Shown piece after piece: positions 40,529-57,300 of a stretch of 64,000 nt of DNA. A program made the translations under genes and the position numbers. The notes beneath the pieces were generated by a model that made no database searches, had not been told where the DNA came from, and was given only the letters and a program-made list of their open reading frames with translations. Source of the DNA: an uncultured Candidatus Binatia bacterium (GTDB lineage: Bacteria > Desulfobacterota > Binatia > UBA9968 > JAJDTQ01); the NCBI GenBank assembly GCA_965215605.1, contig OZ244070.1, forward strand, positions 2,848,001 through 2,912,000, written 5' to 3'. Within the stretch, counting starts at the first letter, position 1. Every line of letters begins with the position of its first letter.

Positions 40529-42226
40529 ATGGCCGGCCAACAGCCGCCGCGGCGAAGGCACCCCGGCGCGGGCCGGCGCCGCGGCCGCGACCGTCCCAGG
40601 GGGCGGCAGGTCGACCCGGAAGCGCTGGAGCAGGTCCGCGCGCTGCTGGGTGACCGGCCGCGGCGCCGGGACCTCCTGATCGAGCACCTGCACCGCATCC
40701 AGGACCGGTACCACATGCTGTCGGCGCCCCATCTGTCGGCGCTGGCGGACGAGATGCGCCTGCCCCTGGCGGAGGTCTACGAGGTGGCGACGTTCTACGC
40801 CCACTTCGACGTGGCCCGGGACGGCAAGGCCCCGGCCGCGGAGCTCACCGTGCGGGTGTGCGACGGCCTGGTGTGCGAGATGATGGGCGCCGGGGGACTG
40901 CTGGAGGGGCTGCCCGGCGCGCTGGGAGAGGACGTTCGAGTGGCGCCGGGGCCCTGCATGGGCGGCTGTGACTGCGCTCCAATGGTGCGGGTGGAGCGCC
41001 GCACCGTGGTGAGGGCCACCGTGGACGGGGTGGCGGCCTCGGTCCGGCGTCGAGACGTGGAGCCCGAGATGCCGCCGTACAGGGACTACCGGGAATACGT
41101 GGCGGACGGCGGCTACACGCTCCTGAAGGCGTGCCTCGGGGGCGCCCCGAGCCGGGAGGAGGTGGTGGAGAAGGTGACTGCGTCCGGGCTTCGGGGTCTG
41201 GGCGGCGCCGGCTTTCCCACCGGCCGCAAGTGGCAGATCGTGCGCGGCTATCCCGGCCCGCGGCTCATGACCGTGAACGCGGACGAGGGCGAGCCCGGCA
41301 CCTTCAAGGACCGCTACTTCATGGAGGGCGACCCGCACCGGTTCCTGGAGGGGGTGCTGGTGGCGGCGTGGGCGGTGGAAGCGGAAGCCGCCTACATCTA
41401 TCTGCGGGACGAGTACGCGGAGGCCCGGGAGATCCTGTCGCGGGAGTTGCCGAAGCTTCGGGACGCCGGGCTGGACGCGCATTCGGAGGTGCATCTCCGC
41501 CGCGGCGCCGGAGCGTACATCTGCGGCGAGGAGTCGGCCATGATCGAGAGCATCGAGGGCAAGCGCGGGCTGCCGCGGCACCGGCCGCCCTACGTCGCCG
41601 AGACAGGCCTGTTCGGCCGGCCCACCCTGGTGCAGAACGTCGAGACCCTCTACTGGATACGGGACATCGTCGAGAAGGGCCCGGAGTGGTTCACGGCCCA
41701 GGGCCGCAACGGCGGCGCCGGCCTCCATGCCTACTCGGTGTCAGGCCGGGTGGCGCGACCGGGAGTGAAGATCGCGCCCACCGGCATCACCGCGCGGGAA
41801 CTGATCGACGAGTATTGCGGCGGCATGCTGCCGGGCCACCGGCTCAAGGGCTACCTTCCCGGCGGCGCCTCGGGCGGCATGTTGCCGGCCTCCATGGCGG
41901 ACCTTCCGCTCCAGTTCGGGTCTTTGGAGCAGCACGGTTGTTTCGTCGGTTCTCACGGCGTCGTGGTCCTGAGCGACCATGACGACGTCAAGGCGGTGGT
42001 CCGCAACCTGATGCGGTTCTTCAAGCACGAGAGCTGCGGCCAGTGCACGCCGTGCCGGGTGGGGACGGAAAAGGCCGTGACGCTGCTGGAGCGGCCCTCG
42101 TGGGACGAGCCCCTGCTGGAGGCGCTGGGCGACGCCATGACCGACGCCTCCATCTGCGGCCTCGGACAGGCGGCGCCCAACTCGGTGCGCTGCGCCTTCC
42201 GCTACTTCCGGGAGGATCTGTCGTGA
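40529..42226 (+). CDS. NAD-linked formate dehydrogenase flavin subunit (NuoE/NuoF fusion)
   Basis: YEVATFY, GLRGLGGAGFPTG.KW, NADEGEPGTFKD, YICGEE and ESCGQCTPCR motifs. Confidence 0.93.
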   Translation: MAGQQPPRRRHPGAGRRRGRDRPRGRQVDPEALEQVRALLGDRPRRRDLLIEHLHRIQDRYHMLSAPHLSALADEMRLPLAEVYEVATFYAHFDVARDGKAPAAELTVRVCDGLVCEMMGAGGLLEGLPGALGEDVRVAPGPCMGGCDCAPMVRVERRTVVRATVDGVAASVRRRDVEPEMPPYRDYREYVADGGYTLLKACLGGAPSREEVVEKVTASGLRGLGGAGFPTGRKWQIVRGYPGPRLMTVNADEGEPGTFKDRYFMEGDPHRFLEGVLVAAWAVEAEAAYIYLRDEYAEAREILSRELPKLRDAGLDAHSEVHLRRGAGAYICGEESAMIESIEGKRGLPRHRPPYVAETGLFGRPTLVQNVETLYWIRDIVEKGPEWFTAQGRNGGAGLHAYSVSGRVARPGVKIAPTGITARELIDEYCGGMLPGHRLKGYLPGGASGGMLPASMADLPLQFGSLEQHGCFVGSHGVVVLSDHDDVKAVVRNLMRFFKHESCGQCTPCRVGTEKAVTLLERPSWDEPLLEALGDAMTDASICGLGQAAPNSVRCAFRYFREDLS

Positions 42227-44970
42227 GCGGGCCCGTGCGGTTCATCCTCGACGGCCGCGAGGTGGAGGCCGCCGCCGGCGAGACCATCTGGCAGGCGGCC
42301 GAGCGCAACGGCACGGTGCTGCCGCACCTGTGCTACGACCCGCAACCCGGCTACCGGCCGGACGGAAACTGCCGCGCCTGCATGGTGGAGGTGGAAGGGG
42401 AGCGCGCGCTGGCCGCTTCGTGCATCCGGCGCCCGACGTCCGGCATGACCGTGAGCACCGGCAGCGAACGGGCCCGGAAGGCGCGCGGGATGGTGCTGGA
42501 GCTGTTGATGGCGGACCAGCCCCGGCGCGAGGCGGCACACGACTCCCGGTCGCGTTTGTGGCAGTGGGCCGAACGGCTGGAGGTGACGGGAAGCCGGTTC
42601 CCGGCCCGCGAGGCCCCCGCGCCCGACGCCAGCCATCCGGCCATGCGGGTGGCGCTCGACGCCTGCATCCACTGCACCCTGTGCGTGCGCGCCTGCCGCG
42701 AGGTGCAGGTGAACGACGTCATCGGCATGGCCTACCGCGGCGCCGGCGCCAAGGTGGTGTTCGACTTCGATGACCCCATGGGCGAGAGCACCTGCGTGGC
42801 CTGCGGGGAGTGCGTGCAGGCCTGTCCCACCGGCGCCCTGACGCCCGCGTCGCTGGTGGACGCCGCCGGCGTGGACAAGCGCGAGGCCCTCGACGAGGTG
42901 CCCAGCGTCTGCCCTTATTGCGGCGTGGGCTGCCAGATCGACTACCTGGTGAAGGACAATGCCATCGCCGCGGTGCGGGGGCGCCAGGGACCGTCCAACC
43001 GCGGCCGGCTGTGCGTCAAGGGGCGTTTCGGTTTCGACTACGTCAGCCATCCGCACCGGCTCACCGTCCCGCTCATCCGCCGGGAGGACGCGCCCAAGGA
43101 TGCCTCGGCCGACATCGACCCGGCGAATCCCTACAGCCATTTCCGGGAGGCCAGCTGGGAGGAGGCGTTGGACGCGGCCGCCGGCGGTCTCCGGAAGATA
43201 CGGGACCGGGACGGCGGCGGCGCCTTGGCGGGTTACGGCTCCGCCAAGGGCTCCAACGAGGAGGCGTACCTGGTGCAGAAGCTCGTGCGCACGGGCTTCG
43301 GCACCAACAACGTGGATCATTGCACCCGGCTCTGCCACGCCTCCTCGGTGGCGGCGTTGATGGAGGGCATCGGCTCCGCCGCGGTGACCGCGCCCTTCAC
43401 CGCCTGCGAGGACTCCGACGTCATCGTCGTCATCGGCGCCAACCCCACGGAGAACCATCCGGTGGCGGCCACCTATTTCAAGCAGGCCGCCAAACGCGGG
43501 GCCGAGCTTATCGTCCTGGATCCCCGGGGCCAAGCCTTGCGGCGGCACGCCACCTGGATGCTCCAGTTCAAGCCCGGCGCCGACGTGGCGCTGCTCAACG
43601 CGCTGCTCAACGTTATCGTCGAGGAAGGGCTCTACGACCGCGACTACGTGGCCGCCCACACCGAAGGTTTCGAGGAGCTGAAGCGGCACGTGGCCGAGTT
43701 CACGCCGGAAGCCATGGCGGCCGTGTGCGGCGTGGACGCCGGCACCCTGCGCTCGGTGGCGCGGCTCTACGCCGGCGCCGCCGCCGCCATGATCTTCTGG
43801 GGCATGGGCATCTCGCAGCACATCCACGGCACCGACAACGCCCGCTGCCTCATCGCCCTGGCGCTGGTCACCGGACAGGTGGGGAGGCCCGGCACCGGGC
43901 TGCACCCGCTGCGCGGCCAGAACAACGTGCAGGGAGCGTCCGACGCTGGCCTCATTCCCATGTTCTATCCCGACTACCGGCCGGTGGAGGAAGCCGGCAC
44001 GCGCCGGCGTTTCGAGGAAGTCTGGGAGATGGCGCTGGATCCAGGGCAGGGGCTCACGGTGATGGAGATCATGGACGCGGTGCATGCCGGCCAGATCAAG
44101 GGCATCTACATCATGGGCGAGAACCCGGCCATGTCGGACCCCGACGTCCGGCACGCGCGGGAAGGCCTCGCCAGGCTCGAGCATCTGGTGGTGCAGGAGA
44201 TCTTCCTCACCGAGACGGCCTTTCACGCGGACGTGGTGCTGCCGGCCTCGGCGTGGCCGGAAAAGACCGGCACCGTCACCAACAGCAACCGCCAGGTGCA
44301 GATGGGGCGGGCGGCGCTGCAGCCCCCCGCCGGTGTCCGGCAGGACTGGTGGATCATCCAGGAGCTGGCGCGGCGCATGGGCCTCGAATGGAACTACGCC
44401 GGGCCGGCCGACGTCTTCGCGGAGATGAAACGGGTCATGCCGTCCCTCGACCACATCACTTGGGACCGGGTGGAGCGGGAAAGCTCGGTGACCTATCCGT
44501 GCACGGCCCCGGACCTGCCGGGTGCCGACATCGTGTTCGGCGAGGGGTTTCCCACGGCAAGCGGACGGGGGAGGCTCGTGCCCGTGGACATCATCCCCCC
44601 CGACGAGCAACCCGACGAGGCGTTCCCGATGATCCTCAGCACCGGCCGGCAACTGGAGCACTGGCATACCGGCGCCATCACGCGGCGCGCCAGCGTGCTG
44701 GACGAGCTGGAGCCCGAGGCGGTGGCCAATCTCTCCCCCGGGGAGTTGCGCCGGCTAGGCGTGTCCCCCGGAGCGCTGGTGCGCGTATCGACCCGCCGGG
44801 GCTTCATCGAGATCAAGTCGCGGGTGGACAGCGCGGTCCCCGACGGATGCGTCTTCATTCCCTTCTGTTTCGCCGAGGCGGCGGTCAACCTTTTGACCAA
44901 CCCGGCGCTGGATCCCTACGGCAAGATTCCCGAGTACAAGTTCTGCGCGGCGCGTGTGGAGCCGCTGTAG
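42223..44970 (+). CDS. fdhF: Formate dehydrogenase alpha subunit (Cys-type, Mo/W-bisPGD)
   Basis: 2Fe-2S and 4Fe-4S motifs, CPYCGVGC, DHCTRLCHAS, LRGQNNVQG and KIPEYK. GTG overlaps the previous stop. Confidence 0.94.
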   Translation: MSGPVRFILDGREVEAAAGETIWQAAERNGTVLPHLCYDPQPGYRPDGNCRACMVEVEGERALAASCIRRPTSGMTVSTGSERARKARGMVLELLMADQPRREAAHDSRSRLWQWAERLEVTGSRFPAREAPAPDASHPAMRVALDACIHCTLCVRACREVQVNDVIGMAYRGAGAKVVFDFDDPMGESTCVACGECVQACPTGALTPASLVDAAGVDKREALDEVPSVCPYCGVGCQIDYLVKDNAIAAVRGRQGPSNRGRLCVKGRFGFDYVSHPHRLTVPLIRREDAPKDASADIDPANPYSHFREASWEEALDAAAGGLRKIRDRDGGGALAGYGSAKGSNEEAYLVQKLVRTGFGTNNVDHCTRLCHASSVAALMEGIGSAAVTAPFTACEDSDVIVVIGANPTENHPVAATYFKQAAKRGAELIVLDPRGQALRRHATWMLQFKPGADVALLNALLNVIVEEGLYDRDYVAAHTEGFEELKRHVAEFTPEAMAAVCGVDAGTLRSVARLYAGAAAAMIFWGMGISQHIHGTDNARCLIALALVTGQVGRPGTGLHPLRGQNNVQGASDAGLIPMFYPDYRPVEEAGTRRRFEEVWEMALDPGQGLTVMEIMDAVHAGQIKGIYIMGENPAMSDPDVRHAREGLARLEHLVVQEIFLTETAFHADVVLPASAWPEKTGTVTNSNRQVQMGRAALQPPAGVRQDWWIIQELARRMGLEWNYAGPADVFAEMKRVMPSLDHITWDRVERESSVTYPCTAPDLPGADIVFGEGFPTASGRGRLVPVDIIPPDEQPDEAFPMILSTGRQLEHWHTGAITRRASVLDELEPEAVANLSPGELRRLGVSPGALVRVSTRRGFIEIKSRVDSAVPDGCVFIPFCFAEAAVNLLTNPALDPYGKIPEYKFCAARVEPL

Positions 44971-45028
44971 CGGATGCGGACGAGGATGTTCGATGGCCGC
45001 CGGCAGGAGTTCCAGCGACGGCCCGGGA

Positions 45029-45100
45029 TCAGTATTCGAGCAGTACGGCGATGGCGAGGCTGACGGCGATGGACAGACCTATGACGAGCCAGACTTCCAA
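45029..45100 (-). CDS. Putative 23-aa single-pass membrane micropeptide MEVWLVIGLSIAVSLAIAVLLEY
   Basis: AAGGAGGT (45112-45105) lies 4 nt before the TTG. The peptide has a continuous hydrophobic stretch and is below the ORF-track size cutoff. Confidence 0.6.
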   Translation of the reverse strand: MEVWLVIGLSIAVSLAIAVLLEY

Positions 45101-45127
45101 GACGACCTCCTTTAAAGTAACTCTAAC

Positions 45128-45156
45128 AAAAAAAATTCTGTAAGTCAAACTTACAG
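45128..45156 (-). terminator. Intrinsic terminator/attenuator upstream of the micropeptide
   Basis: CTGTAAGT-TTG-ACTTACAG 8-bp stem followed by AA and T8. Confidence 0.7.
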
Positions 45157-45291
45157 CACTGATTCTGCGAAACCAATTCTCCGATTCAGGGTGAAACCGA
45201 GACGGCGCGTACCGGGAAACAGTCGCTTCAACGCAGATGGGAAAGGACTCCCGGCGACCGGGAGCTCAGACGGCTGACAACTCGTGAAGTC
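45128..45291 (-). ncRNA. Candidate sRNA or riboswitch-like leader (~165 nt)
   Basis: Bounded by a promoter and a terminator. Stems: CTCCCGG/CCGGGAG (45248-45264), TCTGCG/CGCAGA (45164-45169/45232-45237), and a basal stem 45266-45276/45154-45162. Confidence 0.5.
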
Positions 45292-45297
45292 TTTTTA

Positions 45298-45326
45298 AAT
45301 TTAACTGGTTAGAGGGCTTTTTTCAA
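45298..45326 (-). promoter_or_regulatory. sigma70-like promoter
   Basis: TTGAAA (45326-45321)-N17-TAAATT (45303-45298) in an AT-rich patch. Confidence 0.6.
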
Positions 45327-45421
45327 GTAGAGTGGACGGATCCGCCGGTCATTCTTTCAAATTGGCTAAAACGGTTGACGTTACCGTCGGCGGAGCTGCG
45401 GCGGTGTTTCGTATCGCGTCC

Positions 45422-45994
45422 TCAGAAGCTCACTTTCGGCGTCTCTCGGGCCGCTTCCTCCACCCTGAAGTACTCGGCCTTCTCAACGCCGGCCAGGTCC
45501 GCGTAGAACCGGCCCGGCAGCCTTCGCACGAACGTATTGACCGCGGTGACGCTGTCGTTGAACCGCTTTCGCTCCACCGCCAGGCGGTTCTCTGTGCCTT
45601 CGAGTTGGTCCTGGAGCTTCAGGAACGACTGGTTGGACTTCAGCTGCGGGTATTGTTCCCGAAGCACGAGCAGCCGGGACAATGCCCGCTCGAAGCCGAC
45701 GGCGGCCTGGGCCTTCTGGTTGACCGTGTTGGCCTGGAAGTAGGCTTTGCGGGCGTTGGCCACGCCCAGGAAGATCTTCTCCTCCTGCTTGGCGACCCCC
45801 TTGACCGTTTCCAGCAGGTTGGGAATCAGCTCGAAGCGCCGCTGGAGCTGGTTCTCCACCTGCGCCCACTGGTTCTTGACCCCCTCGTCCAGGGTGATGG
45901 CGCGGTTGTAGCCGTTGAGGACACAGCCGCCCGCCAGCAACACCATCCCGACGATGGCAGCCAGCCCCACCAGCAAAATTCTCGATGCGCTCAA
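45422..45994 (-). CDS. lemA: LemA family protein
   Basis: YN, WAQVENQLQRRFELIPNL, EQYPQLKSN and LEGTENR motifs. Confidence 0.94.
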   Translation of the reverse strand: MSASRILLVGLAAIVGMVLLAGGCVLNGYNRAITLDEGVKNQWAQVENQLQRRFELIPNLLETVKGVAKQEEKIFLGVANARKAYFQANTVNQKAQAAVGFERALSRLLVLREQYPQLKSNQSFLKLQDQLEGTENRLAVERKRFNDSVTAVNTFVRRLPGRFYADLAGVEKAEYFRVEEAARETPKVSF

Positions 45995-46106: not shown

Positions 46107-46952
46107 TCACCAGCCGGCTCCGCCGCCACCACCCCCGAAGCCGCCGCCGCCGCCGAAGGAACCCCCGAAGCCGCCGCCGAAGCCCCCTCCGAGACCTCCG
46201 CCTGAGCCACCCCAGGAACGCCCGCCGCCTCCGAGGAGGCTACCGAGGACCGCTCCCATCAGCAAACCGGAAGCCGCGCCCCGGCCTCCCCACGCCGTGC
46301 GATGACGGCGCCGGCGTAGCGAGCTCAGGAAGAACAGGCCTATCAGCACGGGCATCAGCGAGCCGCCGATGCCCGTGCCGGTCACGCGCCGCCGGCCGCT
46401 GCGGATTCGGTAGTCGGGCGCTCCGGTGAGCTTCACCCGCGCCGCGTCCGCCACCCGGTTGGCCGTGGCGACGGTGAGGGCAAACAAACCCTCGGCATAT
46501 TTTCCTGTCCTGAAGAAATCCTGGGCCACCCGTCGCGAAGCGGTGCCGGCCCAGGAGTCGGGCAGCACCCCTTCAAGGCCGTACCCGGTGTGTACCCGCA
46601 CCCTCCGCTCCTTCACGGTCAAGGTGATGAGCGCGCCGTTGTCCTTGCCCTTGCGGCCGAGCTTCCAGGCCTCGGCGTGGCGCTGCACGAAGCCGAAGAA
46701 GTCTTCTCCGTCCGTCGTGGGAACGGTCAGGACCTTGACTTGGGCCGTGGTCTTCCGCTCCAGCTCCCGCAGCCACCCCTCCATCCGCCGTTCGGTGGCG
46801 GCGTCGATGAGACCGGCCTTGTCCACCACGTACGTTCCCGGATCCTTGACCGTGACCGCCGCGCCCGCCGCCGAAGCGAGCAGCGCCAGTGCGGCAAGGC
46901 ACACGGCCAGCAGCACCGGCCCGAGCGGGAAGCGGGCGAGCCTACCAGGCAT
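46107..46952 (-). CDS. TPM-domain protein with Gly-rich tail (YgcG-like)
   Basis: VVDKAG, WKLG.KG.DNG, GYGLEG.LPD and a tail ending GGGGAGW. Confidence 0.9.
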   Translation of the reverse strand: MPGRLARFPLGPVLLAVCLAALALLASAAGAAVTVKDPGTYVVDKAGLIDAATERRMEGWLRELERKTTAQVKVLTVPTTDGEDFFGFVQRHAEAWKLGRKGKDNGALITLTVKERRVRVHTGYGLEGVLPDSWAGTASRRVAQDFFRTGKYAEGLFALTVATANRVADAARVKLTGAPDYRIRSGRRRVTGTGIGGSLMPVLIGLFFLSSLRRRRHRTAWGGRGAASGLLMGAVLGSLLGGGGRSWGGSGGGLGGGFGGGFGGSFGGGGGFGGGGGGAGW

Positions 46953-48090: not shown

Positions 48091-48316
48091 CTAGTGTGGT
48101 GCCTGGTTGATTCGCATAACAATCCGCGGGTCTTTTTCGCCGTCGGCAGCGTGGTAAGGTGCGCAGGAGTTCTTTTGTCGGCACGTGTGTACTGCTCTTG
48201 CGGGAATGGCAGGAAGCGCAAGCGCGGTGGTCGCGAAAGGCGGCTGTACGAAATGCCTGCGACCCGTTGCGTTTCGTCGCGCACGATGGATCAAGGAATT
48301 CGCGGAGGGCGAAGAG

Positions 48317-51300
48317 ATGAAGAGCAAGGACCGTTCCCCGTCGTCCCGAGCGCCGGGCGTACGGGCGAAGAGTTCCGACCGCCGGGCTTCCGGGACCGCC
48401 GAGCCCATCGCCATCGTCGGCATGGCGTGCCGGTTCCCCGGCGCGCCGGACATTTCCTCCTTCTGGCGCCTGCTCGAAGCCGGCGGCAACTCCATCACCG
48501 AAAGCACACCGGCTTTCGGTGTCGGGCGCGTGGGCCAGATTTTCCCTGACGGTACGGTGCCCCGCGAAGCCTGCCGTTTCGGCGCCTTCGTCGACGACAT
48601 CGAGCTGTTCGACGCCGGTTTCTTCCGGATCTCGCCGGTGGAAGCCCAACTGCTGGACCCGCAACAGCGCATGATGCTGGAGACCAGTTGGCAGGCCCTG
48701 GAGGACGCGGGGATCGACCCGGACCGGCTCAAGGAGAGCCTCACCGGCGTGTACACCGGCATCAGCAACGACGAGTACCGGATGCTGGTGGTGGATTCGA
48801 CCAAGCCTTCCGGGGCCGCCGAGTGCCTCTATGCCCTGAGCGGTACCAACCTGAACGGCACCAGCGGGCGCGTCTCCTTCGTGCTGGGCCTCATGGGGCC
48901 GGCGAAAGCGGTGGACGCCGCCTGCGCCTCGTCCCTGGTGTCGGTACACGACGCGGTGGCGGACCTCCAGCAGGGGAAGGCGGACCTGGCCATTGCCGGC
49001 GGGGTCCAGGCCATGCTGAACAGCCGCATCTACGAGCTGCGGGCGGACGCCATGATGCTGTCCCCGGACGGACAGAGCAAGGCGTTCGACGCCTCCGCCA
49101 ACGGCTACGTTCGGGGCGAGGGTTGCGGGGTCGTGGTGCTGAAGCGCCTGAGCGACGCGGAGGCCGACGGCGACCGGATCTGGGCGGTGATCCGAGGCGC
49201 GGCGGTGAACCACGGCGGCGCCAGCTCCGGTCTGACGGTGCCGCACACGCCCGCCTTGGTGCAGGTCATCGAAACGGCGCTGTCGCAGGCGGGAATACCA
49301 CCGGCGGAGGTGGACTACCTGGAGGCTCACGGCACCGGCACGGCCGTGGGCGACCCCATCGAGATCAACGCCGTGGCCGATGTCTACGGCAGGGGACGCG
49401 ACCCCGACCACCCGCTTCTGGTGGCTTCGGTGAAGACCAACATCGGCCATCTGGAGTCGGCGGCCGGGATCGCCGGCCTGATCAAGACGGCGCTTGTGGT
49501 CAATCGGGGCGTCCTTCCGAAGCACCTGCATTTCCGGGATCCCAATCCCCGTCTCGACTGGAACCGTCTGCCGCTGCGCATCACCACGGCCCTGATGGAC
49601 TGGCCCAACCGTCCCGGCCGGCCGCGCCGCGCCGGCGTGAACTCCTTCGGGATATCCGGCACCAACGCCCATATCGTGGTGGAGGAGTATCTCGCCCCGG
49701 AGGAGACGTCCGGAGAGGAACACCGGGCCGTCGGCCCGGCCCGGGTGGTGGCGGTCTCGCTGCCCGAGACCGCGGCGGACCTGCCGTTGCCGGAGCAGGG
49801 GCTCGGTCCACGGTCGGCCCGTTTCCTGCCGCTCTCGGGCAAGTCGCCGGCTGCACTCCGGGAACTCGCGGCACGGTATCTGTCGTGGCTCGACGAACCC
49901 CCGGAGAACCTGTCGGCCGAAGGCGCGGCTTCGGAGCCGGCGCTGTCGGACATGGCATGGACGGCCGGGGTGGGACGGAGCCACTTCGATCAACGCGCCG
50001 GCGTGGTCTTCCACGATGCCAGCTCCTTGCGCGAGGGGCTGAAGGCCCTGACCCAGTCGGGCGAGGACGCCGGGCCGGCGGCCAACACGGTGGCATTCGC
50101 CTACACCGGACAGGGAAGCCAGTGGGTCGGCATGGGCCGGACGCTCTACGAGAGCGAGCCGGTGGCGCGGGCGGTGCTCGACCGGTGCGAGTCGGTGTTC
50201 CGGGAGCAGCGGGGGACCTCCCTGCTGGACGTGATGTTCGGCAGGACCGGAGGGGAAGGGGACCTGGGCGATACGGCCTGGGAACAGCCGGCGCTCTATG
50301 CGCTGGAGTGTGCGCTCACCGCGCTGTGGGCGAGCGTGGGTGTCCGGCCCGCGGCCGTCCTCGGGCACAGCGTGGGCGAAATCGCGGCGGCCCAGGCCGC
50401 GGGCGTGTTCAGCCTGGAGGACGGGATGAGGCTGGCGGCGACGCGGGGCACTCTCCTGTCCGGCATCGATCCGGGCGCCATGGCCGCGGTCTTTGCGCCG
50501 GCGGCGCGCGTGGCGGCCGTGGTCGAGGCGGCCAACGACGCATCGGCTGGAGTCGGTGTCAACATCTCGGCGGATAATGGAACCCACCAAGTGGTCAGCG
50601 GACCGGTGGCGGGCATCGAAAACCTCTCGAAGCGCTTCGATTCGGAAGGCATCCGGGTCAGGCGGCTGAACACGACCAAAGCGTTCCACAGCGCGCTGGT
50701 GGAGCCAGCTCTGGACGCGCTGGAAGCGTTCCTGGGCGGCGTGACCGTCGAGTCCCCCTCCCTGGCGGCGGTGGTCAGCAACCTGACCGGCCGGGTGGTG
50801 GAGGCGGGCGAGAGGCTGGACGGGGTCTACTGGCGGCGGCATGCACGGGAGCCGGTGGCGTTCGCGTCCGGCGTCCGCACGTTGGCGGAGTTCGGCGTGG
50901 ACCTCGTGGTGGAGATCGGCCCGCACTCGGTGTTGGCCCCGATGGCGGTGTCGGCCTGGCCCGAGTCCCCTGGGAGGCCGGCGCCAAGGGTGCTGCCGAG
51001 CCTGTCCAGACCGTCCGGCGACGACCCGGCCGACCCGGATGACGGCTTCGTCGAGGCGGTGGCCGGGGCGTACCGGGCGGGGCTGCCGGTTCGTTTCGAG
51101 GGGCTCTTCGCGGGAGAGGCGCGGCGACGCATCCCGTTGCCGGGGTATCCGTTTCAACGGGAACGCCATTGGCTGGAGGCGCCGAAACAACGGCGCGGGA
51201 GCGACGGCCACCCGCTGCTGGGCGTCCGGCATGAGTCCGCTCGCGGCGAGATCTCCTTCGAGACGGAAGTCTTCCCGTCGGATCCCGCGTGGCTGAGCGA

Positions 51301-54300
51301 CCACCGGCTGTTCGGGCGGGTGGTGGCCCCGGCCGCGCTCTACGGCGCCATGGCGGCAACGGCGGCCCTCGCCGAGGGCGGCGGAGCGGTGGTGGAAGAC
51401 ATGCAACTGCACAACCCGCTGGTGTTTCCGGAGCAGGAGTCCGGGGACGGTGCGGGTGAGGACGGCCGGAGAGTCCAGGTCGTGCTCGACGCTCCCGGGC
51501 AGGCGGCGTCCCGCGGCGTCCAGCTCTTCAGCAAGGGGAGTGATGGGGAATGGACGGTGCACGTGGAGGGACGCGTGCCGTCGGGCGCCCCCGCGCCGCA
51601 ACCGGTGACTCGGGTGGATCTGGACGGTCTGAAGGCCGGCATGGCGCCGGTGGAGGTGGCGGACTACTATCGGGCCAGGGCAGAAACGGGGATCGACCTC
51701 GGTCCGTCCTTCCGCAGCCTCGGGAGAATCTGGGCGCGACCGGGCGAGGCGTTGGGCGAGGTCTCCTTTCCGGAAGCGCTCGGGCGCAACGGCCTGGATG
51801 TCCACCCGCTGGTGCTGGACGGTTGCTTTCAGGTCGTGGGGGCCGCACGCGGCCTCACCGGAACCCAGGGTGCGACCACGTACCTGCCGTTCGGATGGGA
51901 GCGCTTGTGGCTGGCGGGGCGGCTGCCGGAGAGGGTCGTCTGCCACGTGCGCATGAACATGGCATCCCCGGAGCCGGAGGAGGTGACGGGTGAAGCGCCG
52001 GAGGTCCTGAGCGGGGACCTGAACATCTACGACCCCGACGGGGTGCTGCTCGGCGTATTGAGCGGATACACGGTGAAGCGGGCCACGCGGGAGGCGCTGC
52101 TGTCGGCGGTCGAAGGCGTGAAGGATCTGTTGTACGAAGTCGTGTGGCGCGACTCCGCCCTCGCCCCGGGCCTGTTGCCGGCGGACTTCTTCCCGAGTCC
52201 GGCCACCGTCGCCGCGGCCTCGCAGTCGTTCTCCGGCTACCTGACCGGCGCGGACGTGGATCCCGAGGACCGGTGTGCCTTGCTGGAGGACCTGGAGCGG
52301 TGGTCCTGGTCCTACGCGCTCGCGACCCTCGACAAGCTGCGCTGGCGGCGCAGGGCGGGCGAGGTGGTGGATCCCGAAGACCTGCGTCAACGGCTGGGCG
52401 TCAAGGAGGAGCACAAGCGCCTCTTTCGGCGGATGCTCGAGATGCTCGCCAGATCAGGCGTCCTGGAGGAAGCCGGCGACGGGTTCACCGTGGTGGTGGG
52501 TTCGAGGGACCGGTGGCCGGATGAAATGCCGCCCTATCCCGATTTGTTCGGCGAGCAGATGGCGGACCTGTACCCGGACGGCTCCATCGAGGTCGGGCTG
52601 TTCAGGAGGTCGGGAGCCGCCCTGGCCGACGTACTTCGCGGCCGGGCCGATCCGCTGACGCTCCTGTTCAGCAGCGGCGAGCCCACCGCGGCGGATCTGT
52701 ATCTCAAGGCGCCGGTGGCGCGCGTGGCCAACCGGATGCTGGCGGACGCGGTCCAGGTGCTGGTGGCCTGGATACCGGAAGGACGGCGGCTGCGGGTGCT
52801 GGAGATCGGAGCGGGCACGGGGTCGGCCACCGCGTCCGTGCTGCCGGAGCTTGCGGACGGCCGCTTCGACTACATCTACACGGATATCTCCGCGGGCTTC
52901 TTCGCGGAAGCCGAGGCGCGGTTCGGCAACGAGGGCATCGAGTACCGGCCGCTGGACATCGAGAAGGATCCCATCCCCCAAGGCTTCGAGTCCCACGGTT
53001 ACGACCTGTTGATCGCGTCCAACGTGCTGCACGCCACCCGGTACCTGCCGGCGACGCTGGGCCACTGCCTGGACCTGCTGGCGCCGTCGGGACACCTGAT
53101 CGCCCTCGAGAATCTCAGCGGCCTGGGCTGGATGGATCTGACCTTCGGACAGTTGGACGGGTGGTGGCGGTTCGCCGACGACTACCGCCCGCACCACGCC
53201 CTGGCGAACCCGGCGGTGTGGCGGCGGGCACTCGGCGACGCTGGCTTCACGGGAGCGGAAGTGCTGGGGCCGGACGAGTCCGAAACGGACAGGATGCCGG
53301 ACAAGGGCGTCATCGTGGCCCAAGGTCCGGCGCAGGTGACGGAACCCCCGGGCGTGTGGGTGCTCGCCGCGGACCACGGCGGTGTGGCGGCCGAGTTGGC
53401 AACCGAGCTGGCGGCGCGTAACCAGACCGTCGTGCTGGCGGATGGCGAAGCCTCGGGAAGCCTGGAGAACCACGGGGCCGGTGTTCTCAGGACGGCCGTG
53501 GACGCGGAGGACCGTGAGGCGTGGCGATCGCTGTTGGAGGGCCTGCCTCAAGACATACCGTTCAACGGGGTGGCACACCTGGCGGGGCTGGACGGTCACG
53601 GGGCCGAAGCCGAGGCCGCGGAGATCGCCGAGGACGTGAGCCGCGCCGGGGCAAGCGCGCTGGCGCTGACGCAGGCCGTGGCCGATGTCGACGTGACGCC
53701 GGCCAAGGGCGTCTGGTTCGTCACCCGCGGGGCGCAGGTGCTGGAACGGGAGCGCGGCGGCGAGCTTGCCGGCGCCATACTGTGGGGTTTCGGCAAGGCG
53801 GTGGCGCGGGAGGCGGCGCACCTCCAGCCGAGGATGATCGATCTGGACCCCGGAGACACGGCCCCCGTGCCCGATCTCCTGAGCGAGCTGCTGTATCCCG
53901 ATCCGGAGAACCACATCGCGTACCGCTCGGGACGCCGTCGGGTGGCGCGTCTGGTCCGGGCGGGCGCGGGGGTGGAACGGCTGTCCCTGCCGGAACAGCC
54001 GGAGTGGACGCTGGCCCCGGATCCGGCCGGCGTGTTCGAGAAACCGTACGTCATGCCACTGCCGGCGCGTCCCCTGGAGCCCAGGGAAGTCCGCGTCGCG
54101 GTGGACGCTGCTGGGCTCAACTTCTGGGACGTGTTTCGTTCCCTCGGCTTCATCGAGGAGGGGAATCTGGGCCGGGAGATGTGCGGCCGCATCGTCGATG
54201 TGGGTTCGGAGGTCTCCGCCGTGTCGGCGGGCGACCCGGTGGTGGGACTGGGGTTCGGCGCGTTCGCGGCGGAAATGATCACCCACGAGGAGCTGGTGGC

Positions 54301-57300
54301 CCCCGCGCCGCCGGGGATTCCGGTGACGGGGCTCGCCACGGTGCCCAGCGCGTTCGTGTCGGCGGCCTTGTCGTACGAGTTTACCGGGCTGGAAGCCGGC
54401 GACCGCGTGCTGATTCACGCCGGCGCCGGGGGCGTGGGGTTGGCGGCGATCCAGTTGGCGCAGGCGGCGGGAGCCGAGGTCTTCGCCACCGCCAGCGCGC
54501 CGGAGCAGGCGTATCTCCGGTCGCTGGGAGTGGATCATATCTACGACAGCCGTCAGACGGCGTTCGGGAAGGAGATACTCGACGACACGGATGGCGCGGG
54601 CATGGACGTGGTGCTGAACAGCCTGACGGGAGAAGGCTTCATCGACGCCAGCCTGTCCTGCCTGAAGCACGGCGGCCGGTTCGTGGAGCTGGCCCGGCGT
54701 GACATCCTGAGCGCGGACGAGATGGCGGCGGCGCGTCCGGACGTGGCCTACCTGATCTTGGACCTGGACGTACTCAAGAAGACCGACCCGGCGTGGGTAG
54801 GAAGGGTCCTGCGGGGGGTGATGGAGCGCTTGGTGGCGAAAGAGCTGGAACCCATCATTCACAGCAGGTGGCCGCTGTCCGAAGCGGGGGCCGCCTTGAG
54901 CTTCATGCGCTCGGCGCGGCACCTCGGCAAGATCGTCGTGACCGCCTCGCCGCTGGCGACGGGCCGGTTGCGGCAGGACCGGAGCTACCTGGTGACCGGC
55001 GGTCTGGGCGGAATCGGCTGCGCCGTGGCCGGTTGGCTGGCAGACCACGGAGCCGGGACCATCGTCCTCAACGGGCGCCGGGCTCCGGACGACGCCGCCG
55101 ACGAGGCCATCGACGCTCTCAGGGAACGCGGGGTGACGGTGCGGGTGGAGCTGGCGGACGTCAGCGACGCGGCCGCGGTGGACGCGATGCTGGAGCGGAT
55201 CGATGGCGAACTGCCGCCCCTCGGCGGCGTGATCCACAGCGTGGGCGTGCTGTCGGACGGCGCCCTGACCAACCAGAGCTGGGAGCGGTTCGAAACGGTG
55301 CTGTGGCCGAAAGTGCTGGGGGGCTGGCACCTGCACCGTGCGACCGCGGACCGTGATCTGGAGTTCTTCATCCTGTTTTCGAGTCGGGTCGGCGTCATGG
55401 GCAATCCCGGCCAGGCCAACCACGCTTCGGCCAATGCCTTTCTGGACCAGCTCGCCGGCCACCGCCGGGCGCTGGGGCTTCCGGGGCAGAGCATCGCCTG
55501 GGGGGCGTGGTCCGAGATCGGCGAGGCCGCGGAACAACGGGAACGCATCGACCTGCAACGGACGGCCTTGGGCGGGCGCTGGTTTACCCCGCAGCAGGGT
55601 CTCCGGGCATTGGACCAGTTGGTGCGGCAGGATGCCACCCACTCCGTGGTCATGGCGATGGACTGGTCGATGTTCGAAGAGGCGGTGGAAGACCGTCCGC
55701 TCTTTCTGGAAGACCTGCTGACCGCCGCGGCCGACGACGACGCCGGCACCGGGGCGTCGTCGGACGATCTGCTTTCCCGGCTGCGGGGAACCTCGGTGGG
55801 GTCGCCCGAAGAGTTGCTCGTGTCCTTCCTGCAACAGGAGGTCCGGGCGGTGCTGAGGCTGCCGGCAACGCCGGCCCCCACGGTGGGGTTCTTCGACCTG
55901 GGGATGGACTCGCTGATGGCGGTGGAGCTGCGAAACCGGCTGAACCGGGCGCTGGCGGACGTGTACACGGTGCCCAACACCGCGGTGTTCGACTACCCGG
56001 ACATCGCCGCCCTGGCGCGGCATCTGGTCGGGGAGCTTGGCGAAGTGGGCAGCGCGCTCGTTCCGCAGGCACAACCCGAGACACGGGCCGAGGCACAGCC
56101 CGCGGCACAGGCAACGCCGGCCGTGCGCCACGGGGACGACGGCATCGCCATCGTCGGCATGGCATGCCGCTTCCCCGGCGCTTCGGACCTGTCGGCCTTC
56201 TGGCGCCAGCTCGAAGCGGGCGAGAACGCGGTGACGGACCGGCGCCGGGATGCCGTTTCCTCGGACGATCTCGCCGCGGGCCTTCCCGCCGAGTATGCGG
56301 CTTACGCCCGGGGCGGGTTCGTGGATGGGATCGAAGGGTTCGACGCGGAATTCTTCCGGATTACGCCCATCGAGGCGCGCATGATGGATCCCCGGCAGCG
56401 CATGATGCTGGAGACCACTTGGCAGGCTGTCGAGGATGCCGGGATGGACCCGGGCGGGTTGAGGGGCAGCCGCACCGGAATCTACGCCGGCATCGGCACC
56501 AGCGAGTACCGGGACCTGATGACGGCCGGCGCTTACGGCGTGAGCTACCTGGGCACCGCCGCGAGCATGGCCGTTGGGCGGGTGGCTTTCCATCTGGGGG
56601 TGGAGGGGCCGACCATGCCGGTGGATCTCGACTGTGCGTCGTCGCTGGTGGCGGTGCATCACGCGTTGGCGGGTTTGCGTGGAGGTGAAGTGGACATGGC
56701 CCTGGTGGGCGGCGTGGCCGCGGTGCTGTCGCCGGGAATCACCCGGGAGATGGCCGATCTGGGGATGCTGTCGCGAGGAGGTCAGTGCAGGGCCTTCGAC
56801 GCCGCCGCGGATGGCTTCGTGCGCGGCGAGGGCTGCGGCATGGTGGTCCTCAAGCGGCTGGGCGACGCGGTAGCCGACGGCGATTGCATCTGGGGCGTGA
56901 TCCGTGGTTCGGCGGTGAACCAGAACGGCGCCAGCGCGGGGCCGACGGTGCCCAACGGCCGGGCGCAGGCGCGGGTGATCGAAGAGGCGCTGTCCCGGGC
57001 GGGTGTGGCGCCCTCCGAAGTGGATTATCTGGAGACCCACGGGGCGGGGTCGCAGTTGGGCGATACCATCGAGGTCCAGGCGGCGGCCGCGGTCTACGGC
57101 AAGGGGCGCAAGCCGGAGCAGCCGCTCCTGATCGGCTCGGTGAAGACCAACATCGGCCACCTGGAGCCGGCCGCCGGGGTCGCGGGCCTGATCAAGACGG
57201 TACTGGCCATGAAGCGAGGCGTGATCCCGAAGCAACTCCATTTCGACGCCCCGAATCCGAACGTGGATTGGGAGCGGTTGCCGGTGCGCGTGACGTCAGA

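What the first reader, a model, noticed from the sequence alone, without database searches (positions are those of the whole stretch)
45029..45326. Hidden unit: promoter, structured leader with switchable terminator, and a 23-aa membrane micropeptide
Seen on the minus strand, in order: TTGAAA-N17-TAAATT; a ~165-nt multi-stem RNA; an intrinsic terminator (8-bp stem plus T8); AAGGAGGT; then TTG-started MEVWLVIGLSIAVSLAIAVLLEY*. The 3' strand of the basal stem (CAGC..CTGA / TCAG.GCTG) overlaps the first 3 nt of the terminator stem, so the two structures partly compete, as in a transcriptional ON-riboswitch. I cannot match it to a known riboswitch class. Inference: a novel riboswitch/attenuator controlling a small membrane protein, a type I toxin-like locus, or a stand-alone sRNA.
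Basis: partly seen in the sequence, partly recalled or inferred. Interest (0 to 1): 0.75.

Follow-up and report, generated by a model that had tools for sequence, protein, structure and literature searches.

The report
Hidden 23-residue membrane peptide gene
The real feature here is a tiny, unannotated gene for a 23-residue membrane peptide with its own strong promoter, kept in most species of one uncultured Binatia genus; the proposed riboswitch in front of it is not supported.

Summary
The reading as one riboswitch-controlled unit fails.

The 23-codon ORF at 45100..45029 (-) is the conserved core. It is intact in 21 of 28 genomes of the genus, always 23 codons and always TTG-started. Its pN/pS is about 0.33. 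It is the only frame open in all 21 genomes.

The ORF has its own near-consensus sigma-70 promoter, P2: TTGACT-17-TGnTAGAGT at 45148..45120. The canonical positions of P2 are invariant in all 21 genomes. P2 lies downstream of the "leader" and overlaps the "terminator".

- The hairpin is stable in only 2 of 21 genomes.
- The leader is missing in 13 of 21 ORF-bearing genomes.
- The leader folds no better than shuffles, z = -1.3.
- It shows no net covariation and matches no Rfam family.

The peptide has no Pfam or NCBIfam family. No match was found outside the genus in 301 genomes of the class.

Best reading: an orphan single-pass small membrane protein gene. A type I toxin role is not excluded. 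No RNA data were available. Interest is modest.

The parts
45029..45100 (-). 23-codon ORF (TTG start at 45100..45098, TGA stop at 45031..45029) encoding MEVWLVIGLSIAVSLAIAVLLEY, a predicted single-pass membrane micropeptide.
   Evidence: Intact, 23 codons and TTG-started in 21 of 28 genus genomes. 13 of 23 residues are invariant. pN/pS about 0.33. It is the only frame open in 21 of 21 genomes. Mean Kyte-Doolittle hydropathy of residues 3-21 is 2.4-2.8.
45105..45112 (-). Shine-Dalgarno AAGGAGGT, 4 nt upstream of the TTG start.
   Evidence: An A/G-GGAG core is aligned at this position in all 21 genomes.
45120..45148 (-). Proximal promoter P2: -35 TTGACT (45148..45143), 17-nt spacer, TG (45128..45127), -10 TAGAGT (45125..45120). 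It leaves a 5' UTR of only about 13 nt.
   Evidence: In the 21-genome alignment, TTTGA of the -35 and T, A and final T of the -10 are invariant while the flanks are unalignable. It is the only promoter-like site in 1.5 kb in G019 and G009. It is one of 6 matches to TTGAC-N15-TGnTAnnnT in the 4.06-Mb genome, against 1 for the reversed control.
45128..45156 (-). 8-bp hairpin CTGTAAGT-TTG-ACTTACAG (45156..45138) plus AA and T8 (45135..45128). It is terminator-like and lineage-specific. Its loop and 3' arm are the -35 of P2 and its T-run is the P2 spacer.
   Evidence: 1 site found against 1.6 expected in shuffles. Hairpin energy is -8.3 kcal/mol in G000 and -12.8 in G014. It is 0 to -7.6 in the other 19 genomes, where the predicted pairings differ. 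68% of cells are paired over the 7 leader-bearing sequences.
45157..45291 (-). Variable 'leader' between P1 and P2. Only its first ~50 nt, including the hairpin CTCCCGG-TCG-CCGGGAG at 45264..45248, are moderately conserved.
   Evidence: It is present (whole, divergent or partial) in 7 of 21 ORF-bearing genomes. Identity between G000 and G012 is 87% in the first 54 columns and 55% in the rest. No Rfam hit. The 26-codon frame inside it is broken by a 1-nt deletion in G014 (read from the alignment).
45298..45326 (-). Distal promoter-like site P1: TTGAAA-17-TAAATT.
   Evidence: Both hexamers are kept in 6 of 21 genomes: G000, G014, G022, G012, G004, G024. It is deleted in G017 and absent from the rest.
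45422..45994 (-). lemA (LemA family), the upstream neighbour on the same strand. It is the last gene of a unit made of a 240-aa ORF, a TPM-domain gene and lemA.
   Evidence: Pfam PF04011, E = 1.4e-51. lemA lies upstream of the micropeptide gene wherever the upstream flank was held: 74-325 nt away, or 1455 nt in G003.
42043..44970 (+). Convergent formate dehydrogenase alpha-like gene. Its stop codon lies 58 nt from the micropeptide stop.
   Evidence: Pfam Molybdopterin, Molydop_binding, Fer2_4 and Fer4 domains. The convergent arrangement is kept in most genomes. Only 11-12 nt separate the two stop codons in 7 of 21.

Best explanation
The region holds a self-contained, unannotated gene for a 23-residue hydrophobic peptide, MEVWLVI..SIA.SL.IA.LL.Y. 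It is transcribed from its own strong sigma-70-type promoter with an extended -10 (P2, 45148..45120). It is translated from a TTG start behind a strong Shine-Dalgarno on a very short 5' UTR.

The peptide most likely inserts into the cytoplasmic membrane as one helix. It most likely acts by packing against a larger membrane protein through its invariant small-residue face (S10, S14, A18). This step is inference. The adjacent LemA/TPM membrane proteins are the first candidates for a partner.

The gene is restricted to one genus of uncultured Candidatus Binatia. It was probably present in the genus ancestor and has since been lost several times.

The sequence upstream (P1 plus 'leader') is a separate, older and decaying element, not a riboswitch for this ORF. 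The hairpin plus T-run exists only in the window's own sublineage. There it may end transcripts coming from P1 or lemA just in front of P2.
For: ORF:
- 21 of 28 genus genomes hold it, always with 23 codons and a TTG start.
- There are no indels, although the flanks have many.
- The stop codon is kept, as TGA in 20 genomes and TAA in 1.
- Among 19 distinct sequences, variable columns by codon position are 12, 5 and 15 of 22.
- Mean pS is 0.312 and pN 0.102, against lemA pS 0.395 and pN 0.044, over the same 210 genome pairs.
- All replacements are hydrophobic for hydrophobic, or polar E/Q/H/R at position 22.
- Frame +0 alone is open in 21 of 21 genomes.
- A decayed remnant with a premature stop lies in G013: alignment score 53 against a null maximum of 36 in 200 shuffles.

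Promoter P2:
- Invariant TTTGA...17...TTA..T in 21 of 21 genomes.
- Found by the scan in the window, G019 and G009.
- One of 6 such sites in the genome.

Autonomy:
- In G003 an IS1-like remnant separates the unit from lemA by 1455 nt.
- In G012, G003 and one further genome, HEAT-repeat and DNA-methylase genes separate it from fdhA.
- The P2-SD-ORF unit stays intact in all these cases.

Against a riboswitch.
Against: - There is no transcript, ribosome or peptide evidence of any kind.
- The genus is fairly shallow: LemA proteins are 88-99% identical. Conservation over 69 nt therefore carries limited weight.
- pN/pS of 0.33 is three times that of lemA.
- Frame +2 is also open in 20 of 21 genomes.
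- Synonymous sites of codons 2-7 hardly vary. This could reflect a constraint at the RNA level.
- Seven of 28 genomes do without the gene while keeping lemA, the TPM gene and the 240-aa ORF. It is therefore not an obligatory partner of these.
- P2 in G012 (TAGGCT) falls below the scan threshold.
- The membrane topology and the partner are inferred only. The peptide is too short for the structure and complex tools.
Confidence: 0.7

Rival explanations
1. P1 drives a ~165-nt ligand-sensing leader whose basal stem competes with an intrinsic terminator, giving riboswitch or attenuator control of the micropeptide.
For: - All elements stand in the right order in the window.
- The 3' strand of the proposed basal stem overlaps the hairpin by 3 nt.
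- The CTGA/TCAG half of the stem is paired in 87.5% of cells, with one compensatory change.
- P1 is kept in 6 genomes across deep splits.
Against: - A conserved promoter (P2) lies between the leader and the ORF and overlaps the terminator.
- The leader is absent in 13 of 21 ORF-bearing genomes. In G024 P1 is kept but the leader is deleted.
- The fold has z = -1.3.
- The alifold covariation term is +1.22.
- Helix 1 is 58% paired and the terminator 68% paired.
- The hairpin is stable in 2 of 21 genomes.
- The 3' two-thirds of the leader are 50-55% identical across the deep splits, near the neutral expectation given lemA pS of about 0.4.
- No Rfam match.
Confidence: 0.04
2. The peptide is a type I toxin: a small membrane-damaging peptide whose mRNA is held in check by an antisense RNA. 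The antisense partner would be read-through of the convergent fdhA transcript or an undetected sRNA.
For: - It is a 23-aa, highly hydrophobic peptide.
- Its distribution in the genus is patchy, with repeated loss and decayed remnants.
- It has no known family.
- Only 11-12 nt separate the convergent stop codons in 7 of 21 genomes, so the two mRNAs should overlap.
Against: - No promoter-like site was found on the + strand in or next to the ORF.
- The upstream leader RNA has no special complementarity to the ORF mRNA: the duplex energy is weaker than that of shuffles.
- The gene is single-copy and vertically inherited in fixed synteny, unlike many type I loci (recalled).
- It has a very strong promoter and SD, with no sequestering 5' UTR.
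- The unit persists where fdhA is displaced by insertions.
Confidence: 0.12
3. The conserved 130 nt is a non-coding or dual-function sRNA made from P2. The open frame is incidental, and conservation reflects base-pairing or structure.
For: - Near-invariance of the first 20 nt, including synonymous sites.
- pS is slightly lower than in lemA, 0.312 against 0.395.
- Frame +2 is open in 20 of 21 genomes.
Against: - A strong SD at fixed spacing and conserved start and stop codons, including a TGA-to-TAA change that keeps the stop.
- No indels in 69 nt.
- Second codon positions vary least: 5 of 22, against 12 and 15.
- Replacements are conservative for a membrane helix.
- pN is lower than pS.
Confidence: 0.1
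4. This reading is not exclusive of the best explanation. In the G000/G014 lineage, P1 makes a stand-alone sRNA of about 150-165 nt that ends at the hairpin plus U8. Elsewhere P1 is a second, distal promoter of the micropeptide mRNA.
For: - P1 hexamers are kept in 6 genomes across deep splits.
- The first ~54 nt after P1 are 87% identical between G000 and G012.
- The hairpin plus T-run is present and compensated within the G014-like group.
Against: - The element is lost in most genomes.
- No structure is supported.
- There are no paralogues in the genome.
- There are no RNA data.
Confidence: 0.3

Closest known systems
Bacterial small membrane proteins of under 50 aa, such as AcrZ, KdpF, CydX, MgrB and YohP of Escherichia coli (recalled from the literature; none was compared here).
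   Same: A very short ORF with its own SD, and one hydrophobic helix with polar ends. Such genes are missed by gene callers. They usually work by binding a larger membrane protein.
   Different: There is no sequence relation to any Pfam or NCBIfam family. The gene is restricted to one Binatia genus. At 23 aa it is at the short extreme. The TTG start is invariant. No partner is known.
Type I toxins, such as the 18-19-aa Ibs peptides with Sib antisense RNAs, or ShoB/OhsC (recalled).
   Same: The size and hydrophobicity of the peptide, its patchy presence among close relatives, and its location in an intergenic spacer.
   Different: No antisense or complementary sRNA gene was found. The gene is single-copy in fixed synteny. 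It has a strong promoter and an unoccluded SD.
Transcriptional riboswitches and attenuators.
   Same: In the window alone, the order is the same: promoter, structured leader, hairpin plus U-run, SD, ORF.
   Different: There is no conserved aptamer, no covariation, no conserved terminator and no Rfam family. An independent conserved promoter lies downstream of the leader.

Membership tests
Riboswitch / transcription attenuator | A conserved, structured sensor domain with covarying helices. | tested here: not met
   Fold z = -1.30. RNAalifold gives -12.75 kcal/mol with a covariation term of +1.22 on 7 sequences. The proposed helices are 58%, 87.5% and 83% paired, with 3 double-sided changes against 1.3 in shuffles (38 of 500 shuffles as high). 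The 3' two-thirds are 50-55% identical across deep splits.
Riboswitch / transcription attenuator | The element lies in the 5' UTR of the regulated gene, with no promoter between it and the gene, and accompanies the gene in relatives. | tested here: not met
   The conserved promoter P2 lies between the leader and the SD. The leader is absent in 13 of 21 ORF-bearing genomes.
Riboswitch / transcription attenuator | A conserved expression platform (terminator and antiterminator). | tested here: not met
   The hairpin is stable in G000 (-8.3) and G014 (-12.8) only, of 21 genomes. 68% of cells are paired. There is no terminator-like site next to the ORF in G019, G009 or G012.
Any Rfam 15 family | A score at or above the family's gathering threshold. 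| tested here: not met
   0 hits in the whole window. At E <= 10 the only hit is a chance + strand match to toga_FSE, 22.5 bits against a threshold of 40. No relevant hit in 6 relatives' loci.
Small membrane protein (a kind, not a homology family) | A short ORF with a ribosome-binding site, kept open and under purifying selection in relatives. | tested here: met
Small membrane protein (a kind, not a homology family) | One hydrophobic segment long enough to span a membrane. | tested here: met
   Residues 3-21 have a mean Kyte-Doolittle hydropathy of 2.4-2.8 in all 21 genomes. This is a hydropathy calculation only. No dedicated topology predictor was available.
Small membrane protein (a kind, not a homology family) | The peptide is actually made and sits in the membrane. 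| not testable with these tools
   No RNA or proteome data are available. The peptide is under the 30-aa minimum of the structure, complex and atlas tools, by their stated limits.
Type I toxin-antitoxin | A small hydrophobic toxin peptide. | tested here: met
Type I toxin-antitoxin | A cognate antisense or partially complementary sRNA gene. | tested here: inconclusive
   There is no + strand promoter-like site in or beside the ORF. Leader-mRNA duplex energy is not better than that of shuffles. Read-through from the convergent fdhA could serve but cannot be tested.
Type I toxin-antitoxin | Toxicity on overexpression. | not testable with these tools
   This needs an experiment.
Sigma-70-type promoter (P2) | A -35 TTGACA-like and a -10 TATAAT-like hexamer, 16-18 nt apart, with the key positions conserved in relatives. 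| tested here: met
   Activity was not tested.
Pfam / NCBIfam protein families | A significant profile match. | tested here: not met
   0 families at E <= 1 for the 23-aa peptide in both libraries.

The most novel reading that the evidence does not exclude
The micropeptide gene arose within this Binatia genus, in the spacer between the convergent lemA and fdhA genes. It works as an antisense-coupled pair with formate dehydrogenase. In 7 of 21 genomes only 11-12 nt separate the two stop codons, so the two mRNAs must overlap. Transcription of fdh would then silence a strongly promoted, membrane-active peptide, giving a type-I-toxin-like switch without a dedicated antitoxin gene. P1 and the leader would be the relic of an earlier layer of control.
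Probability: 0.08. Interest if true: 0.55.

Novelty: new member of a known kind. Interest (0 to 1): 0.3.

Why it matters
The result adds one well-supported, unannotated small membrane protein gene to an uncultured phylum-level lineage (Binatia/Binatota) for which no small proteins have been described. This rests on two checks: the peptide motif is in no paper of the searched library, and the exact sequence is not in the 15-billion-protein collection.

It is also a cautionary case. A promoter, leader, hairpin plus T-run, SD and ORF in a row can look like a riboswitch in a single sequence. Comparison across 21 genomes showed that the 'terminator' is mostly the -35 and spacer of the gene's own promoter.

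The function of the peptide is open, as is any link to the widespread but poorly understood LemA/TPM membrane proteins. It is not a new kind of system.

Tried and rejected
- Rfam at gathering and at permissive thresholds, on the window and on six relatives' loci, gave nothing relevant.
- Pfam and NCBIfam on the peptide gave nothing.
- The look-up of sequencing runs: no RNA holder is listed. The four holders are of unknown kind, from one study, and may be the source sample.
- A profile search of 301 genomes of the class found no member outside the genus. The nine weak matches (16.6-19.1 bits) were rejected as chance: seven lie inside open frames of 147-594 aa and two in frames of 26 and 46 aa.
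- The genome contigs pattern scan gave 18 hits. Sixteen are MAGs labelled Binatia, Deltaproteobacteria, Syntrophobacterales or Thermodesulfobacteriota and carry the same locus. The hits in a Parapedobacter and a Clostridia genome were dropped as chance. The Parapedobacter frame is 57 aa and unrelated downstream. The Clostridia locus gave no open frame with the regex.
- The metagenome scan gave only 4 contigs, near-copies of loci already held.
- Leader as a pseudogene or second small ORF: the 26-codon frame is broken in G014 (alignment).
- Leader as a repeat or mobile element: there is one copy in its own genome and no plasmid match.
- Leader as a trans-acting antitoxin: the duplex energy is not better than that of shuffles. 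The shuffles were mononucleotide, and duplexfold on such long RNAs is crude.
- A G005 remnant of the ORF is only suggestive: score 41, null mean 24, null maximum 42. A G002 remnant is not supported: score 30, null maximum 30.
- The literature searches on LemA and TPM returned nothing usable: 0 papers and 1 irrelevant listing. For Binatota I saw only the search listing and abstract starts.
- Structure prediction, complex prediction and the ESM Atlas were not attempted, because the peptide is below their stated 30-aa minimum.
- Supplements of papers were not consulted.
Full report
**Observation**

On the minus strand the window reads, in order:
- lemA stop (45422);
- a promoter-like TTGAAA-17-TAAATT (P1, 45326..45298);
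- about 135 nt of sequence;
- an 8-bp hairpin (45156..45138) followed by AA and T8;
- AAGGAGGT (45112..45105);
- a TTG-started 23-codon ORF (45100..45029) giving MEVWLVIGLSIAVSLAIAVLLEY;
- 58 nt further on, the stop of the convergent formate dehydrogenase alpha-like gene.

The region has about 45-52% G+C, in a context of about 65-73%.

Three things qualify the description.
- The leader folds no better than shuffled sequence: -50.6 against -45.5 +/- 3.9 kcal/mol, z = -1.30.
- One terminator-like site in 2.5 kb is no more than the 1.6 +/- 1.2 seen in shuffles.
- The scan finds a second promoter-like site, TTGACT-17-TAGAGT with an upstream TG, at 45148..45120. Its -35 is the loop and 3' arm of the 'terminator', and its spacer is the T-run.

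**What is conserved**

The genome belongs to a genus of uncultured bacteria whose public records are labelled mostly Candidatus Binatia.

A 431-nt query of the whole spacer matched 19 of 41 related genomes, all in the genus. One of these, G010, was a spurious 25-nt match. There were 0 matches in 16 genomes of two sister families. In most genomes only query positions 279-407 matched, which is window 45152..45024.

With that 129-nt piece, 24 of 28 genus genomes matched at E <= 0.01. Twenty-one of them carry a full ORF. The three weak matches (G010, G002, G005) lie elsewhere in the genome.

In all 21 genomes the ORF has exactly 23 codons and a TTG start. Among 18 distinct peptides, 13 positions are invariant: M1 E2 V3 W4 L5 I7 S10 A12 L15 A18 L20 L21 Y23.

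**Coding test**

- Among 19 distinct nucleotide versions, the variable columns by codon position are 12, 5 and 15 of 22.
- Over the 210 pairs of the 21 genomes, pS is 0.312 and pN 0.102. For lemA in the same pairs they are 0.395 and 0.044.
- Replacements are hydrophobic for hydrophobic, or E/Q/H/R at position 22. The hydropathy of residues 3-21 stays at 2.4-2.8.
- Frame +0 is the only one of six frames open in all 21 genomes. Frame +2 is open in 20.
- One genome has TAA in place of TGA.
- There is no indel in the 69 nt, while the flanks are full of them.

The seven genus genomes without the ORF all keep lemA, the TPM gene and the 240-aa ORF. G013 holds a decayed copy with a premature stop, scoring 53 against a null maximum of 36. 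G005 may hold a remnant, scoring 41 against a null maximum of 42.

On a lemA nucleotide tree the ORF occurs in all four major clades, and its absence needs at least three changes on well-supported branches. The tree is a quick build from 570 columns with many unresolved forks, rooted on two long outgroup rows. This points to an ancestral gene lost repeatedly.

I conclude that the ORF is very probably a real protein-coding gene. Its constraint is looser than that of lemA.

**Its own promoter**

In the alignment of the 72 nt upstream of the ORF from the 21 genomes, almost nothing is alignable. The exceptions are AA(A/G)TTTGA(C/T)..., a 17-nt spacer, (T/G)GTTA(G/T)A.T, and the SD. The invariant columns are TTTGA of the -35, and T, A and the final T of the -10. 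These are the positions that define a sigma-70 promoter.

The scan reports this site as the only promoter-like site in 1.5 kb around the ORF in G019 and G009, and finds no terminator-like site there. In G012 the -10 is TAGGCT, which falls below the scan threshold.

In the window's 4.06-Mb genome, TTGAC-N15-TGnTAnnnT occurs only six times, against once for the reversed control. P2 is one of the six.

The -10 ends 7 nt before AAGGAGG, so the 5' UTR is about 13 nt. That leaves no room for a sensor. Five genomes carry an extra 13-16 nt here.

The unit is autonomous.
- In G003 an IS1-like remnant puts 1455 nt between lemA and the unit.
- In G012, G003 and one further genome, HEAT-repeat and DNA-methylase genes lie between the unit and fdhA.
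- P2, SD and ORF are untouched in all of these.

**The 'leader' and the 'terminator'**

The distance from the lemA stop to the ORF ranges from 74 to 325 nt. P1 and/or a homologue of the leader is found in 8 of the 21 genomes:
- complete in G000, G014, G022 and G012;
- divergent in G004;
- without P1 in G011;
- only the 3' part in G017;
- in G024, P1 is present but nearly the whole leader is deleted.

Thirteen genomes have none of it. On the lemA tree these eight fall in three of the four clades. The element is therefore old and is being lost, mostly by deletion.

Between G000 and G012 the first 54 aligned columns after P1 are 87% identical. These include the hairpin CTCCCGG-TCG-CCGGGAG. The remaining 106 columns are 55% identical. 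Against G011 and G004 the remainder is 50% and 51% identical. That is about what unconstrained DNA should show, given lemA pS of about 0.4.

- RNAalifold on 7 sequences gives -12.75 kcal/mol with a covariation term of +1.22, so there is no net support.
The CTGA/TCAG half is paired in 87.5%, with one compensatory A-U to G-C change. The hairpin is paired in 83%. Overall there are 3 double-sided changes against 1.3 in shuffles, and 38 of 500 shuffles are as high.
- The terminator stem is paired in 68% of cells.
- Folded alone, the segment gives -8.3 kcal/mol in G000 and -12.8 in G014. The close relative G022 gives only -2.3, and the other 18 give 0 to -7.6 with different pairings.
- A G014-like metagenome contig keeps the hairpin through a change that turns a G-U pair into G-C.
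- No Rfam family matches, in the window or in six relatives' loci.
- The leader has no paralogue in its own genome and no plasmid match.
- It has no special complementarity to the ORF mRNA.
- Its 26-codon frame is broken in G014.

The riboswitch or attenuator reading is therefore rejected. What remains possible is narrower. P1 may be a second, distal promoter. In the G000/G014 sublineage its transcript, or read-through from lemA, may stop at the hairpin plus U8 just in front of P2.

**What the peptide is**

It has no Pfam or NCBIfam family. The exact 23-aa sequence, and the window's 39-aa extended frame, are not in the 15-billion-protein collection, so gene callers have missed the gene.

A profile of the 18 peptides scores 46-53 bits in 16 of the 22 genus genomes sampled. 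Among 301 genomes and 118 genera of the class, nothing outside the genus scores above 19.1 bits. In a sister family, TPM-lemA is followed by an unrelated 210-aa membrane protein.

The peptide is an 18-19-residue hydrophobic stretch between E2 and a polar residue plus Y at the C-terminus. It has an invariant S10-x3-S14-x3-A18 small-residue face.

By analogy with characterised bacterial small membrane proteins (recalled, not tested), the most likely mechanism is this: the peptide inserts as a single helix and modulates a larger membrane protein. The co-located LemA and TPM proteins are membrane-anchored and are the obvious first candidates. However, seven genomes keep them without the peptide. 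Within one genus, synteny is also weak evidence.

A type I toxin role cannot be excluded. The size, the hydrophobicity, the repeated loss and the convergent overlap with fdhA all fit; only 11-12 nt separate the stop codons in 7 of 21 genomes. But no antitoxin RNA was found, and the locus is single-copy and vertically inherited.

**Limits**

- There are no RNA data (see Tried and rejected).
- The structure, complex and atlas tools require at least 30 aa.
- The leader alignment has only 7 sequences, so the covariation tests have little power either way. The case against the riboswitch rests mainly on P2, on the absence of the leader from most genomes, and on the near-neutral divergence of its 3' two-thirds.

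**Verdict**

The micropeptide is real. The riboswitch is not.

The finding is a new member of a known kind: an orphan, genus-restricted small membrane protein gene with a strong private promoter. Interest is 0.3.

Noticed in passing
window 48185-58645 (+): A 3486-aa modular type I polyketide synthase with domains KS-AT-DH-MT-ER-KR-ACP-KS-AT (Pfam). It starts about 0.5 kb beyond the operon made of the 240-aa ORF, the TPM gene and lemA.
   Followed up: partly
window 45371-45388 (-), and the lemA-proximal spacer in L006, L009, L010, L011, L025: Just after the lemA stop there is a small hairpin, ACGGT-AACGTCA-ACCGT, followed by TTT. In the clade without the leader, a different hairpin at the same place changes on both sides (GGCTGG/CCAGCC in G019, GGTCGG/CCGACC in G042). 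It is possibly the 3' end of the lemA operon transcript. This was read by eye and not tested.
   Followed up: no
window 45126-45142 (-), P2 spacer; alignment A4: The P2 spacer is unusually conserved: AAC-TTTT..-GTTA, a TAAC-N7-GTTA inverted repeat by my own count in about 15 of 21 genomes. It could be an operator for a repressor, or it may only reflect the promoter. The window's own copy reads GAAT instead of TAAC.
   Followed up: no
window 45274-45301 (+): A promoter-like site CTGACA-16-TAAATT lies on the opposite strand. It shares the palindromic TTTAAATTTAA with the -10 of P1 and points antisense into the 3' end of lemA. Its conservation was not examined.
   Followed up: no
L044 (G003) and L024, L053 (G012 and one further genome): Insertions flank the micropeptide unit. 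An IS1-like transposase remnant lies between lemA and the unit in G003. A HEAT-repeat protein gene and DNA methylase genes (N6_N4_Mtase) lie between the unit and fdhA.
   Followed up: partly
window 46107-46952 (-): The TPM-domain protein ends in a long Gly-rich tail, GGGGRSWGGSGGGLGGGFGGGFGGSFGGGGGFGGGGGGAGW, after a hydrophobic segment. The sister-family homologue in L104 has the same kind of tail.
   Followed up: no
window 45328-45356 (+): A weak Rfam match to the togavirus frameshift element: 22.5 bits against a gathering score of 40, E = 0.058. This is a chance hairpin around a GGATCC palindrome.
   Followed up: yes
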